Positions 54,760 to 57,407 of a DNA stretch of 64,000 nucleotides are shown here, piece after piece (position 1 is the stretch's first letter; each line of letters begins with the position of its first letter). The translations under genes and the position numbers were made by a program. Under the pieces are notes generated by a model that was given only the letters and a program-made list of their open reading frames with translations, did not search any database and was not told the DNA's origin. Origin of the DNA: a bacterium (GTDB taxonomy: Bacteria; Patescibacteriota; Minisyncoccia; Phycocordibacterales; UBA1006); the NCBI GenBank assembly GCA_037144045.1, contig JBAWXN010000001.1, positions 203,752-267,751 on the forward strand, given 5' to 3'.

Positions 54760-56610
54760 TTAAATATGTAGTCTTTTATTAATTTCATCTACCAATTGAT
54801 CTAGCAGCTGATAATCATTAGATAAGGTAGTTCGTGTTGGCTTGAAATCATTTGAGATGTTCATTTTTAATTTTTCTAAAAACTCAATTGAAAATTTATT
54901 ATTTTGCTGTAAATATATTTTGATTTGATCAATCAATGGACTAGTTTCAATTAAGGAAAAGTTGAGTACGTCAGCTCCAAATTCTTTTTTATATAAAGTT
55001 TTAAACTTACTTTCAATAAAAGGTTTTCGAAGGAAGTCTTCAATTGTAGCCCCTGCTGAAATTTGTCCTATTAAATCCCGAATAGTGACGACATTATTTG
55101 TATTAAAAACTCCTCCAATACTGAGTATTTTGTCTCTATATCCAATTCCTTCCTTGTCATCGTCAGTAAGAACCATAACATCAATCTCGTCACTGTTTAA
55201 TTTTGTAGCAACTTGAACAATATTACTACCTGTTCCATTAGTAATTCCGAAATCAAAACTTTTTAAAGTAAAGATTTTTTGTAATATTATTTTATCGCTT
55301 GCCCCTTCAACTAAAATTCTGTATGGTGAAAACAGGTCACGATATACACTTAAACCAAACGCTATATCAAGTACCTCGTCACCAGTAATATCATCTGTCG
55401 GCCCGACCAGTATTTTTTCTGTTATAGCTGATTTATTTTTTTTAATTATAATATTTCGTTCTTTATTTTTTCTGTCAACGAGAAAAGGAGAATGTGTAGA
55501 TACAAACAAATAGTTAGTTTTACCAATTTCTAATAACTCATCTCGCAAGTCTCTAATTCCTGAAGGATGTAGATGTGTTTCTGGTTCGTCTATCAAGATA
55601 AGATTGTTCTTTTTTCCCATTTTTTTGGCTTCAATAGATAAGGATAGGATAAGAGAAATAAACTGCTTAAAACCTTCGCTGCGTGATGTCATTTTATGGT
55701 AATTGTGCTCATTGTTTTTACCGTCATCTTTTATAGACACTACAATTTTTTTAGTGTCTGAAATCTCTATGTCAAAATTAATATCATGATCCCAGACATT
55801 TTTTACATAATTTGTTGCATTGTCAGATAGTCTTCCCATCAGCTTTCTTCGCAAATTATCATTTGAAGTTTCATCGATTTTCTCCTTTATTTGCTTTGAT
55901 CCAATAAAGCCCGATAATGCAAATATGTTCCTCAGTGGAATATTAGAAGAAGGCTTTTCTCTGAATTCTGTTAAATCGACAGACCCTAGTAAGTATTTAT
56001 CGGAAGGTTTCCAAAAAGAAACTTGGGGCTCGAACTCTTTAATTGAATTAACAATTGCCTCATTAAAATTCTCTATAACAAAAGCCTCATCTACTGGACT
56101 ATATGTTTCATCAGCGTCCGGTTTCTTCTTAATATCAAAACTATCCACGGTCTTACTCTCCGTTCCCACTGTTATGGTTTTTTGTATTTTTTTAGCAACT
56201 AATCCCTTTTTAACATTATTAATATCATATTCGTAGGATTCAGAGAAAAACTTTGTATCTTTTTGAAGATATACATTTTTGCAAATATTCTTGATATTAA
56301 AATCAAGAATATTGTTATCGTCACCAATTTCCGCTCGCACAAAATCCAGCCACGACTCCTCTTTATCAAAATCAAGATAAAACCATAAATCAATAGGGTT
56401 GCCCTCCTCGTCTTTTTGGTTATGAAGAGAGTGGTAATCAAATTCTTCAGTAGGTGTATTAAGGTATGATATTGCATCAAGAATATTACTTTTTCCAGAC
56501 TCATTTACACCAAGAAATACTGTTGTGTAGCTTGGTCCATATTTTTTAATGTCGAGTTCAATTTTCTGAATTGATTTGTAATCCTCAATTATTATTTTTA
56601 TTAATTTCAT
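54760..56610 (-). CDS. OLD-family nuclease: N-terminal ABC-type ATPase (AAA_15/21-like) plus C-terminal TOPRIM domain
   Basis: Walker A GVNESGKSNILDAI. Signature-like TSRSEGFKQFISL. Walker B/H-loop LILIDEPETHLHP. TOPRIM Glu motif ILVEGASDKIIL and DxD motif VMVLTDDDKEG. The gene is extremely AT-rich, roughly 28-30% GC. Confidence 0.8.
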   Translation of the reverse strand: MKLIKIIIEDYKSIQKIELDIKKYGPSYTTVFLGVNESGKSNILDAISYLNTPTEEFDYHSLHNQKDEEGNPIDLWFYLDFDKEESWLDFVRAEIGDDNNILDFNIKNICKNVYLQKDTKFFSESYEYDINNVKKGLVAKKIQKTITVGTESKTVDSFDIKKKPDADETYSPVDEAFVIENFNEAIVNSIKEFEPQVSFWKPSDKYLLGSVDLTEFREKPSSNIPLRNIFALSGFIGSKQIKEKIDETSNDNLRRKLMGRLSDNATNYVKNVWDHDINFDIEISDTKKIVVSIKDDGKNNEHNYHKMTSRSEGFKQFISLILSLSIEAKKMGKKNNLILIDEPETHLHPSGIRDLRDELLEIGKTNYLFVSTHSPFLVDRKNKERNIIIKKNKSAITEKILVGPTDDITGDEVLDIAFGLSVYRDLFSPYRILVEGASDKIILQKIFTLKSFDFGITNGTGSNIVQVATKLNSDEIDVMVLTDDDKEGIGYRDKILSIGGVFNTNNVVTIRDLIGQISAGATIEDFLRKPFIESKFKTLYKKEFGADVLNFSLIETSPLIDQIKIYLQQNNKFSIEFLEKLKMNISNDFKPTRTTLSNDYQLLDQLVDEINKRLHI

Positions 56611-56640: not shown

Positions 56641-57003
56641 TTAATTAATCTTTTCTAGAAAATTTCCAAGCGACCCTTTAATCAAATTCCTCAACGTCTC
56701 ATCACTAATATAAATATAAGCCCCCTTGATTCCTCTCGTAAGCAAGGTCTTATAAATATTGATAATATATCGTTTCAGCTCTTCAGGGTCACTTATTCCT
56801 CGACCACCATTGATATCCTTATATTTTTTCGGATCAATAACTAACTGTTTAGTTTCAAGATCGTAAGAAATCTCCGGACCAACGATTACGCCTACATAAT
56901 TCAAATCATATCCCTGAACTGTGTGAATACACCCAACCTCGTTTACTGAATTTGGTGAGTTTACCCAATCCTGAGCAACACTATTCCAAACCAGTTTCGT
57001 TTG
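56641..57003 (-). pseudogene. C-terminal fragment of a DUF2075-type (SF1 helicase-related) ATPase gene, N-terminally truncated
   Basis: The frame translates ...NEVGCIHTVQGYDLNYVGVIVGPEISYD..., which is the helicase motif VI-like T.QG plus the DUF2075 C-terminal signature. It continues upstream of the listed ORF and hits a stop at 57004-57006. There is no in-frame ATG at the listed start (codon 56902-56904 is TTG) and no N-terminal ATPase domain anywhere upstream. Confidence 0.55.
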
Positions 57004-57107
57004 TTACGGAAATTAACCACTCGTTTAGTGAGGTCTTTCATATCTGACATAAGTCCGTTATATCATGTTTTTCTTTATTTTTCCATGATATTTTATTTAT
57101 TGTATTT

Positions 57108-57407
57108 TTACGTTATCTTCACCCGTACCTTTACCTCATCCCCCGCCATCAACCCCTCCGCCTTGCGTACTTTGGCCTTGATACAAATCATGAGCGAGCG
57201 GTCTTTGACCAGCGGAAACAATGATGTATCCCATTGTGTCTTACCTATCTTAGCCGAAACCTTGATCATACCCTTGCCATATTTCGTGCGAATCGGTTCG
57301 AAATAGTCACGCGGAAGATGCACAAAATGCCACGTGCCCGCCGAAGAGGCGGGGCCCATGCCAGGCCATTTCCAGATGGTTGCCGTAAACGAAAACGTAG
57401 ATTTCAT
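57108..57407 (-). CDS. DUF1905-family small protein
   Basis: MKSTFSFTATIWKWPGMGPASSAGTWHFVHLPRDYFEPIRTKYGKGMIKVSAKIGKTQWDTSLFP...IKAKVRKAEGLMAGDEVKV. Higher GC than the neighbours. Start placed at the internal ATG. Confidence 0.55.
   Translation of the reverse strand: MKSTFSFTATIWKWPGMGPASSAGTWHFVHLPRDYFEPIRTKYGKGMIKVSAKIGKTQWDTSLFPLVKDRSLMICIKAKVRKAEGLMAGDEVKVRVKIT

What the first reader, a model, noticed from the sequence alone, without database searches (positions are those of the whole stretch)
56641..57006. Listed ORF 56641-56904 has no in-frame ATG and is really the tail of a truncated helicase-family gene
Reading the minus strand by hand, the codon at 56902-56904 is TTG, not ATG. The frame stays open upstream to a stop at 57004-57006 and encodes ...IHTVQGYDLNYVGVIVGPEISYD.... 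This contains the motif-VI-like TVQG and the YVGVI.G signature found near the C-terminus of DUF2075 proteins. No ATPase core (Walker A/B) is present anywhere upstream, so this is a gene remnant, not a small protein.
Basis: seen in the sequence. Interest (0 to 1): 0.5.

Follow-up and report, generated by a model that had tools for sequence, protein, structure and literature searches.

The report
Deletion remnant of a helicase operon
The small listed ORF is the leftover last fifth of a nuclease-helicase gene: a deletion of about 1.5 kb removed the rest of it and most of the gene in front, so this is an ordinary dead gene fragment in a variable region that looks like a defence island.

Summary
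On the minus strand the frame is open from 57003 to the stop at 56643-56641 and is bounded upstream by TAA at 57006-57004. It holds no ATG; the first start-like codon is TTG at 56904-56902. The 120 residues match only the last 30% of Pfam PF09848 (DUF2075 / Schlafen group 3 helicase; profile positions 250-354 of 354, E 1.3e-27).

Relatives in 141 of 145 informative loci, mostly Patescibacteria, are intact proteins of 520-700 aa: a GIY-YIG-like N-terminus, the DUF2075 helicase and often an S24 peptidase. In those 141 loci a 115-aa MazG-like gene lies directly upstream on the same strand.

The window keeps codons 1-20 of that MazG-like gene (57050-56991), joined out of frame to helicase codon ~411 onward (from 56997). 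The two overlap in 7 bases, AAACTGG. About 1.5 kb is missing, and no other piece of either gene lies in the 64 kb.

The event was an internal two-gene deletion, and TVQG is SF1 motif V, not motif VI. The tail keeps 51 of 52 family-conserved positions, so the loss looks recent. This is an ordinary pseudogene of low interest. The conserved MazG-like/helicase cassette is a side lead.

The parts
56641..57003 (-). Open frame of 120 codons plus stop: the 3' tail of a GIY-YIG/DUF2075 (Schlafen group 3-like, SF1) helicase gene. It corresponds to residues ~411-525 of intact relatives and holds no ATG.
   Evidence: sequence and translation; PF09848, profile positions 250-354 of 354, E 1.3e-27; tblastn with 15 full-length relatives, 66-80% identity, E 1e-43 to 1e-49; 51 of 52 positions that are >=90% conserved are kept.
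56641..56904 (-). The listed 87-aa ORF, which starts at TTG inside motif V. It is a mechanical ORF call within the tail, not a supported gene start.
   Evidence: (ORF list). Among the 47 ORFs of >=150 aa listed for the window, 40 start with ATG. The lone tails in other genomes have different break points, and gene callers gave them TTG or GTG starts.
56905..56928 (-).
   Evidence: H27, T28, Q30, G31, Y32 and D33 are invariant or nearly invariant in alignment A1. The motif name is from my own knowledge of UvrD/PcrA/RecD-type helicases.
56731..56754 (-). YKTLLTRG, SF1 helicase motif VI-like (arginine finger region).
   Evidence: Y84 and R90 nearly invariant. The motif name is from my own knowledge.
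56991..57050 (-). Stub of a MazG-like pyrophosphohydrolase gene: ATG at 57050-57048 plus 19 further codons (MSDMKDLTKRVVNFRNKRNW), homologous to residues 1-20 of the 115-aa gene that directly precedes the helicase gene in relatives.
   Evidence: tblastn of the peptide hits the position ~300-350 bp upstream of the helicase gene in about 20 loci; 47 upstream ORFs, 115 aa; PF12643 MazG-like, E 4e-16; full-length MazG-like queries match the window only at 57050-56991, E 1.2e-4.
56961..56990 (-). Nine out-of-frame codons (FGIVLLRIG) plus TAA. They end the 29-aa stub ORF and are helicase-tail DNA read in the wrong frame.
   Evidence: translation; codon alignment.
56991..56997 (-). Deletion junction. 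The 7 bases AAACTGG fit both parents (MazG-like ...CGA AAC TGG; helicase ...AAA CTG GTT TGG AAT), so this may be microhomology.
   Evidence: Relatives L080 and L029 read AAC TGG at MazG-like codons 19-20. L006, L010, L013, L017, L021 and L003 read AAA CTx at the helicase site (L008 reads AAG CTT). The distance between the two sites in 16 relatives is 1510-1552 nt. The microhomology is inferred, because no near-identical intact allele was found.
57004..57006 (-). TAA that closes the tail's frame upstream. It lies inside the MazG-like stub, read in another frame.
57057..57065 (-). TGATATAAC, an extended -10-like element 6 nt before the stub's ATG. It is probably the retained promoter of the former operon (inferred).
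   Evidence: the MazG-like genes of relatives carry TAGAAT, TATAAT or GATAAT 6-9 nt before their ATG; 22 of 37 long ORFs in the window have TAnnnT ending 4-12 nt before the start, and only 2 of 37 have an SD-like motif.
54760..56610 (-). Neighbour, not part of the remnant: an intact 616-aa OLD-family ATPase-Toprim gene that starts 30 bp after the tail's stop. Low G+C; probably acquired horizontally.
   Evidence: AAA_15 over residues 1-378, OLD-like_TOPRIM over 426-485; PADLOC Old, E 1.1e-31; GC 31.1% against 39.6% for the window; no homologue next to the cassette in 160 relative loci.

Best explanation
This is a non-functional remnant left by one deletion of about 1.5 kb inside a two-gene operon.

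The ancestor carried a 115-aa MazG-like nucleotide pyrophosphohydrolase gene, followed directly by a gene of about 525 aa for a GIY-YIG-like nuclease fused to a DUF2075 (Schlafen group 3-like, SF1) helicase. That is an Nhi-like nuclease-helicase architecture.

The deletion joined MazG-like codon 20 to helicase codon ~411. It probably happened by slippage or illegitimate recombination at a 7-base microhomology, AAACTGG.

The joint is out of frame. The old promoter and ATG can now give only a 29-aa peptide. The helicase tail has motifs V and VI but no nuclease, no Walker A or B and no ATG, so it cannot make a working enzyme.

Shown: the homology of both pieces, their order and strand, the absence of the rest from the window, and the intact state of the cassette in relatives.

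Inferred: the microhomology mechanism, the recency of the loss, continued transcription of the remnant, and a defence role for the ancestral cassette.
For: - Tail: it matches PF09848 profile positions 250-354 of 354 only. tblastn with 15 full-length relatives hits only their residues ~411-520, at 56997-56662, and nothing else in the 64 kb.
- Stub: residues 1-20 match the start of a gene directly upstream of the helicase gene in relatives. That gene is MazG-like, PF12643. Full-length MazG-like queries hit the window only at 57050-56991.
- Cassette: among 145 informative loci from genomes and metagenomes, 141 have the intact helicase ORF with the MazG-like gene directly upstream on the same strand.
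- Junction: the codon-level alignment shows that AAACTGG fits both parents, with 1510-1552 nt between the two sites in relatives.
- Independent assembly: a Logan contig from run SRR12676975 is 100% identical over 16,990 bp, junction included.
- Synteny: MsrA, DUF5670, DUF1905 and an MGMT-like gene flank the intact cassette in L001, L007, L010 and L013 as they flank the remnant here.
- Decay is recurrent in this family: L075, L079, L082, L084 and L169, plus lone tails in L083, L170 and L171.
Against: - No near-identical genome with the intact cassette was found. The best relative is 80% identical at the protein level. The ancestral sequence, and so the microhomology, is inferred and not observed.
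- The tail has no frameshift or internal stop over 120 codons and keeps 51 of 52 strongly conserved positions. That fits a recent deletion, but it would also fit purifying selection on an expressed fragment.
- The rest of the genome beyond the 64-kb window could not be searched for a relocated 5' part.
Confidence: 0.87

Rival explanations
1. The tail is a real small gene of 87 aa from the TTG (or somewhat longer from a non-canonical start). It would be kept by selection, for example as a helicase C-terminal module that acts with or regulates the adjacent OLD-family nuclease.
For: - The frame is intact and 51 of 52 conserved positions are kept.
- AlphaFold2 models the 120 residues with mean pLDDT 84.
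- The tail ends 30 bp before an intact OLD-family gene, with no terminator-like site between them.
- Lone tails of similar size occur in other defence islands: L083, L170, L171.
- Gene callers did call it as a gene (P0001).
Against: - There is no ATG in the frame. The TTG cuts through motif V. ATG is the start of 40 of the 47 ORFs of >=150 aa listed for the window.
- The four lone tails break at different family positions (~390, 411, 415, 430). All have TTG or GTG as the called start, and one (L171) has lost conserved residues. That is the pattern of decay, not of a conserved small gene.
- The fragment is only about 30% of one Pfam domain and lacks the ATP site.
- Foldseek finds no autonomous fold; the best hit is the C-terminal piece of PcrA, E 0.3.
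- The OLD homologue is next to the cassette in none of the 160 relative loci.
- The search that found the lone tails used the tail as query and listed only proteins of <=210 aa, so their recurrence is partly an effect of how they were found.
Confidence: 0.05
2. The deletion is an assembly artefact, or a minority variant that the assembler picked. The real genome, or most cells, would carry the intact MazG-like/helicase cassette.
For: The source is evidently a metagenome-assembled Patescibacteria genome, and strain mixtures are common in such data. Only one other contig carries these proteins, and it may come from the same sample.
Against: - Two assemblies of different length (the 64-kb window and a 33.9-kb Logan contig) give the same junction at 100% identity.
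- The only repeat at the joint is 7 bases, far shorter than assembler k-mers, so a collapse is not expected (inference).
- The joint lies cleanly inside two coding sequences, and both flanks continue into syntenic genes.
Confidence: 0.05
3. The gene was split by a rearrangement (inversion, translocation or insertion) and not by a deletion, and the 5' part survives elsewhere in the genome.
For: Only 64 kb could be searched. Split but otherwise complete copies exist in other genomes: L084 with 406+130 aa and L169 with 388+164 aa.
Against: - In those split copies the two parts stay adjacent. Here no part of residues 1-410, or of MazG-like residues 21-115, is found anywhere in the window.
- The joint unites two points of the same operon in the same orientation, at the spacing expected for a simple deletion.
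Confidence: 0.03

Closest known systems
Pfam PF09848, SLFN-g3_helicase (formerly DUF2075): the helicase domain of Schlafen group 3 proteins and of many bacterial proteins
   Same: The tail matches the C-terminal 105 profile positions at 97.5 bits. Intact relatives match the whole profile (positions 2-354, E 1e-65 to 1e-69).
   Different: The window copy lacks profile positions 1-249, which include the P-loop and the DExx box. It is a fragment of a family member, not a working one.
Nhi (S. epidermidis SERP2475) and the 'Nhi-like' anti-phage proteins: an N-terminal nuclease plus a DUF2075 helicase (bioRxiv 10.1101/776245; 10.1101/2022.05.11.491447)
   Same: The intact relatives share the nuclease-then-DUF2075 layout. 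Their helicase core hits the PADLOC Nhi and AbiO models (E 4e-16 and 8e-14).
   Different: - Nhi carries a nuclease of the broad metal-dependent superfamily that includes restriction enzymes and Holliday junction resolvases (10.1101/776245; PD-(D/E)xK-type, from my own knowledge); these proteins have a GIY-YIG-like N-terminus with only weak Pfam support.
- The PADLOC hits cover only part of the models.
- These proteins come with an obligate MazG-like partner gene, and 89 of 144 carry a C-terminal S24 peptidase. Neither is described for Nhi.
- No defence activity has been tested.
PADLOC candidate system PDC-S41
   Same: It is the only PADLOC model that the tail itself hits (E 2.4e-5, model positions 539-624 of 657). 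Relatives also hit its C-terminal part.
   Different: The hits are weak and partial. PDC-S41 is an unvalidated candidate, and the N-terminal two thirds of the model are not matched.
Pseudogene remnants in bacterial defence islands (gene turnover by deletion)
   Same: It is a truncated, start-less fragment. It sits beside an intact, low-G+C, horizontally acquired defence-type gene (OLD family). Comparable lone tails lie next to type I R-M, methylase/Z1 and OLD+UvrD genes elsewhere.
   Different: Nothing substantive. Here the deletion end points can be placed to within 7 bases, because a stub of the upstream gene survives.

Membership tests
PF09848 SLFN-g3_helicase / DUF2075 | Profile match above Pfam's gathering score | tested here: met
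   97.5 bits against a cut-off of 24, E 1.3e-27, but only profile positions 250-354 of 354.
PF09848 SLFN-g3_helicase / DUF2075 | Walker A P-loop (GxPGTGKT) and Walker B / DExH box of the ATPase core | tested here: not met
   Relatives have GKPGTGKT and LIVDE(S/A)HR. tblastn finds no counterpart in any frame of the window.
PF09848 SLFN-g3_helicase / DUF2075 | C-terminal SF1 motifs V (IHTVQGxD) and VI (LLTRG) | tested here: met
   both are present and identical to the family consensus.
Nhi / Nhi-like anti-phage nuclease-helicase | N-terminal nuclease domain fused to the DUF2075 helicase | tested here: not met
   It is absent from the window. In intact relatives a GIY-YIG match is seen only below Pfam's cut-off (E 8e-4 to 4.5e-3).
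Nhi / Nhi-like anti-phage nuclease-helicase | Match to the Nhi family model over its full length | tested here: inconclusive
   relatives hit PADLOC Nhi at E 4e-16, but only over model positions 182-374 of 470. The window tail does not hit Nhi at all.
Nhi / Nhi-like anti-phage nuclease-helicase | Protection against phage when expressed | not testable with these tools
   This needs an experiment with an intact relative. The window copy is truncated.
PF12643 MazG-like pyrophosphohydrolase (the stub) | Four-helix MazG core with the metal-binding E-x-x-E / D motifs | tested here: not met
   The Pfam domain covers residues ~31-115 of the relatives' proteins. The window keeps residues 1-20 only, and the stub alone gives no Pfam hit.
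Functional small protein-coding gene | A credible start codon, and conservation as a free-standing gene with the same ends in other genomes | tested here: not met
   There is no ATG in the frame. Other lone tails have different 5' ends and TTG or GTG as the called start. In 141 of 145 informative loci this region is the end of a 520-700-aa ORF.
Gabija-like pair (OLD-family GajA plus helicase GajB) | An OLD-family ATPase-Toprim gene paired with an intact UvrD-type helicase gene in conserved adjacency | tested here: not met
   The helicase piece is DUF2075-type and truncated. The OLD homologue is next to the cassette in none of the 160 relative loci.

The most novel reading that the evidence does not exclude
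Two linked readings remain open.

(a) The MazG-like gene plus the GIY-YIG/DUF2075 helicase (with or without S24 peptidase) is an undescribed two-gene, Nhi-like immune or DNA-damage-response module. It is widespread in Patescibacteria and also present in Actinobacteria. In this reading the window records its recent inactivation, right next to a newly acquired OLD-family nuclease, as a snapshot of defence-gene turnover.

(b) More boldly, the tail is kept because it is still expressed from the retained MazG-like promoter, either as a stand-alone helicase C-terminal module or as the leader of the OLD transcript.

The probability given is for (b), which is the reading that would change the verdict on this finding. 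I would put (a) at roughly 0.4.
Probability: 0.05. Interest if true: 0.5.

Novelty: new member of a known kind. Interest (0 to 1): 0.2.

Why it matters
For annotation: the 87-aa 'SLFN-g3_helicase' ORF, which automatic pipelines call as a gene (P0001 in the public protein collection), should be marked as a pseudogene fragment. The 29-aa stub upstream explains how it arose.

More broadly, it is one small documented case of defence-type gene loss by a short deletion in a reduced Patescibacteria genome.

The more useful by-product is the cassette. The MazG-like gene and the nuclease-DUF2075 helicase (often with an S24 LexA-like peptidase) are tightly linked in 141 of 145 informative loci. No paper in the searchable library holds both 'DUF2075' and 'MazG'. 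This cassette would be a reasonable candidate for testing as a defence or DNA-damage module.

Tried and rejected
- Frameshifted N-terminal parts: tblastn with 15 full-length relatives and 4 MazG-like proteins against the whole window found none.
- A near-identical genome with the intact cassette, to read the ancestral junction: genome contigs, metagenome contigs, and exact-protein look-ups of the DUF1905 and OLD neighbours were tried. The closest relative is 80% identical at the protein level, and the only exact match is one Logan contig with the same deletion.
- Viral contigs: no relative found, so there is no sign that the cassette is phage-borne.
- PDB by sequence: no significant hit.
- AlphaFold2 model of the tail plus Foldseek against the PDB: nothing significant. 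The best hit is the C-terminal fragment of PcrA, 2pjr_B, at E 0.3, so structure gave no independent support for the motif assignment.
- Promoter and terminator scan: the number of promoter-like sites equals the chance expectation, and there is no terminator between the stub and the OLD gene. This is not informative on expression.
- OLD plus helicase as a Gabija-like pair: rejected, because there is no conserved adjacency.
- An N-terminal resemblance between the stub and the helicase's own N-terminus (MSDIK...): rejected in favour of the MazG-like start, which matches over all 20 residues at the right position in many loci.
- dN/dS on the tail: not attempted, because the nearest relatives are only ~70-73% identical at the DNA level, so synonymous sites are probably saturated.
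- Tool caveat: the search for homologous proteins listed only proteins of <=210 aa for this query, so it could not supply full-length relatives. Those came from the loci.

Full report
**1. The observation**

Reading the minus strand, the codon at 56904-56902 is TTG. The frame is open from 57003 down to the stop at 56643-56641, and TAA at 57006-57004 closes it upstream.

The product is QTKLVWNSVAQDWVNSPNSVNEVGCIHTVQGYDLNYVGVIVGPEISYD...GNFLEKIN. It has 120 residues and no methionine. There is therefore no in-frame ATG, and no GTG or TTG lies before 56904. The mechanical ORF list gives 56641-56904 as an 87-aa TTG ORF.

The 120 residues hit Pfam PF09848 (SLFN-g3_helicase, the former DUF2075) at 97.5 bits, E 1.3e-27, but only over profile positions 250-354 of 354.

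**2. What the intact gene looks like**

A scan of one genome per species returned 80 loci, mostly Patescibacteria/CPR (Saccharibacteria, Paceibacteria, Nomurabacteria, Gracilibacteria and others). They are 59-80% identical to the tail at the protein level. A metagenome scan gave 80 more.

In these loci the matched region is the end of a long ORF of either 520-570 aa or 650-715 aa. The proteins have these parts:
- an N-terminal GIY-YIG-like segment, which is weak in Pfam (E 8e-4 to 4.5e-3, below the cut-off);
- a complete PF09848 helicase domain with GKPGTGKT and LIVDE(S/A)HR;
- in the long form, a C-terminal S24 LexA/UmuD-like peptidase (PF00717, E 1.3e-19).

The tail corresponds to residues ~411-525, that is, the last fifth of the short form.

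**3.

tblastn with 15 full-length relatives against the whole 64-kb window matched only their residues ~411-520, at 56997-56662 (E 1e-43 to 1e-49). Every other hit had E >= 0.09. No nuclease or ATPase part exists in any frame of the window. Only about 100 bp separate the frame from the end of the next gene, DUF1905, at 57108.

**4. What lies in those 100 bp**

Another frame holds a 29-codon ORF at 57050-56961, MSDMKDLTKRVVNFRNKRNWFGIVLLRIG*. Its first 20 residues match the first 20 residues of an ORF that sits directly upstream of the helicase gene, on the same strand, in many relatives. The full list of these upstream ORFs, almost all 115 aa, is.

That upstream gene is a MazG-like nucleotide pyrophosphohydrolase (PF12643, E 4e-16 and 2.5e-12). 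Used as queries, full-length MazG-like proteins match the window only at 57050-56991, through their residues 1-20 (E 1.2e-4).

Of the 160 loci, 15 are cut by contig ends and so are uninformative. The other 145 break down as follows:
- 141 have the intact helicase ORF with the MazG-like gene directly upstream;
- one has the intact helicase ORF with no MazG-like gene detected;
- three have shortened frames. Two of them (L075, L079) still have the MazG-like gene at the expected distance upstream; the third (L163) lies at a contig end.

**5. The junction**

Aligned codon by codon, the window reads ...AAT TTC CGT AAC AAA CGA AAC TGG | TTT GGA ATA GTG. Relatives continue after TGG with AAR CAR TTY CAY (KQFH).

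In the other frame the window reads ...ACG AAA CTG GTT TGG AAT AGT, which equals the relatives' ...AAA CTx GTT TGG AAT (KLVWNS). MazG-like-derived sequence therefore runs to 56991 and helicase-derived sequence starts at 56997. The 7 shared bases, AAACTGG, fit both parents.

In 16 relatives the two points are 1510-1552 nt apart. The simplest history is a single deletion of about 1.5 kb within the operon, at a short microhomology. That last point is an inference, because no near-identical intact allele could be found. The joint is out of frame by one base, which explains both the 29-aa stub ORF and the start-less tail.

**6. Is it real, and how old?**

A Logan contig from run SRR12676975 is 100% identical to the window over 16,990 bp, junction included. 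A 7-base repeat is too short to cause an assembly collapse (inference).

The same neighbours (MsrA, DUF5670, DUF1905 and an MGMT-like gene) surround the intact cassette in L001, L007, L010 and L013. The cassette is therefore probably ancestral at this place.

The tail keeps 51 of the 52 positions that are >=90% conserved among 80 relatives, and its one difference (S for A) is also seen in six relatives. With no frameshift or stop in 120 codons, the loss looks recent. Selection on the fragment cannot be strictly excluded.

**7. Could the tail be a working small gene?**

The evidence is against it.
- There is no ATG. The TTG lies inside motif V. Of the 47 ORFs of >=150 aa listed for the window, 40 start with ATG.
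- This organism shows almost no Shine-Dalgarno motifs (2 of 37 long ORFs). A -10-like TAnnnT ends 4-12 nt before the start in 22 of 37 ORFs, against 34% in shuffled upstream regions. That points to leaderless-type starts, which favour AUG (my own knowledge).
- The fragment is about 30% of one domain and lacks the ATP site.
- AlphaFold2 gives pLDDT 84, but Foldseek finds no autonomous fold in the PDB. The best hit is the C-terminal piece of PcrA, E 0.3.
- Other lone tails exist: L083 next to methylase/Z1 genes, L170 in a type I R-M cluster, and L171 near OLD+UvrD genes. Their break points differ (family positions ~430, ~415 and ~390, against ~411 here). All have TTG or GTG as the called start, and L171 has lost conserved residues. 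That is decay, not a conserved small gene.
- Other decayed copies include an in-frame TAA split (L084, seen on 13 contigs), a many-fragment copy (L082), and a 388+164-aa split in a complete Curtobacterium genome that also has the MazG-like gene upstream (L169).

**8. Context**

Thirty base pairs after the tail's stop begins an intact 616-aa OLD-family ATPase-Toprim gene, 54760-56610. Its G+C is 31.1%, against 39.6% for the window and 50% for the flanking DUF1905 and MGMT-like genes. No homologue lies next to the cassette in any of the 160 relative loci. It is probably a separate horizontal acquisition.

In relatives, the gene right after the cassette varies: Abi_alpha in L013, an unknown gene followed by a zeta toxin in L010, and an unknown gene followed by RNase H in L001. 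PemK and NYN genes lie upstream in L001 and L013. The cassette thus sits at a variable spot with defence and toxin-type genes.

A -10-like TGATATAAC lies 6 nt before the stub's ATG, where relatives have TAGAAT or TATAAT. No terminator-like site lies between the stub and the OLD gene. The remnant may therefore still be transcribed, possibly together with the OLD gene. This is inference only.

**9. Comparison with what is known**

DUF2075 helicase domains fused to N-terminal nucleases define the anti-phage protein Nhi and the 'Nhi-like' proteins (10.1101/776245; 10.1101/2022.05.11.491447). Fusions of DUF2075 to GIY-YIG or PD-(D/E)XK domains have been noted in defence islands (PMC6765204).

The intact relatives hit the PADLOC Nhi and AbiO models only partially (E 4e-16 and 8e-14). 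The tail hits only the candidate PDC-S41, and weakly.

No paper in the searchable library holds both 'DUF2075' and 'MazG', or both 'MazG-like' and 'Schlafen'. MazG domains are listed among predicted but unvalidated defence domains (PMC13092281).

So the ancestral gene works like an Nhi-type nuclease-helicase, but membership in the Nhi family proper is not established. The window copy fails every feature required of a functional member.

**10. Verdict**

This is an ordinary pseudogene remnant, now explained in more detail as a two-gene internal deletion, with a motif label corrected. Interest is low. The tightly linked MazG-like/nuclease-helicase(-S24) cassette is the item worth following up.

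Noticed in passing
L001-L080 and L089-L168 (for example L006:4421-6795, L010:4412-6783, L029:4427-6351): A 115-aa MazG-like gene directly precedes a GIY-YIG-like/DUF2075 helicase gene in 141 of 145 informative loci. 89 helicase ORFs are long forms with a C-terminal S24 LexA-like peptidase and 55 are short forms. No paper in the searchable library holds both 'DUF2075' and 'MazG'. The S24 fusion suggests control by RecA/ssDNA-type self-cleavage (speculation).
   Followed up: partly
window 54760-56610 (-): An intact OLD-family ATPase-Toprim gene (PADLOC Old, E 1e-31) starts 30 bp downstream of the remnant. Its G+C is 31%, against 39.6% for the window, and no homologue lies next to the cassette in 160 relative loci. 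It is probably a recent horizontal acquisition of a single-gene defence nuclease.
   Followed up: partly
whole window, upstream of 37 long ORFs: Shine-Dalgarno-like motifs are nearly absent (2 of 37). A -10-like TAnnnT hexamer ends 4-12 nt before the start codon in 22 of 37 ORFs (34% in shuffled upstream regions, 17% at random positions), with a peak at 6-9 nt. This suggests that many mRNAs are leaderless or nearly so.
   Followed up: partly
L083:5001-5348; L170:4001-4363; L171:4001-4426: Three further lone C-terminal DUF2075 tails (115-141 aa as called, with TTG or GTG starts) have no N-terminal part nearby. Their break points differ. Each sits among defence-type genes: methylase/Z1/HATPase, type I R-M, and OLD+UvrD with a Macro-domain gene.
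   Followed up: partly
L084:3741-5758 (same arrangement in L085 and L086): A DUF2075 helicase gene is split by a single in-frame TAA into 406 + 130 aa. The arrangement is seen on 13 contigs from several samples, and here the MazG-like gene lies downstream of the helicase instead of upstream. It could be a fixed nonsense mutation or a read-through site.
   Followed up: no
L169:2477-4495 (Curtobacterium sp., complete genome CP151474.1): The MazG-like plus DUF2075 pairing also occurs in an actinobacterium, so it is not confined to Patescibacteria. There the helicase is split into 388 + 164 aa.
   Followed up: no
L013:6800-7615; L010:6797-9095; L001:3853-4245: Genes flanking the intact cassette differ between related genomes and include Abi_alpha, zeta toxin and a PemK/MazF toxin. 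The position behaves like a small variable islet of defence and toxin-antitoxin genes.
   Followed up: partly
(tool behaviour): For this 120-aa query, the search for homologous proteins listed only proteins of <=210 aa, mostly contig-end fragments. Full-length relatives of 520-700 aa with equal or higher identity exist in genome contigs but were not listed. Counts of 'short homologues' from that search are therefore biased.
   Followed up: yes
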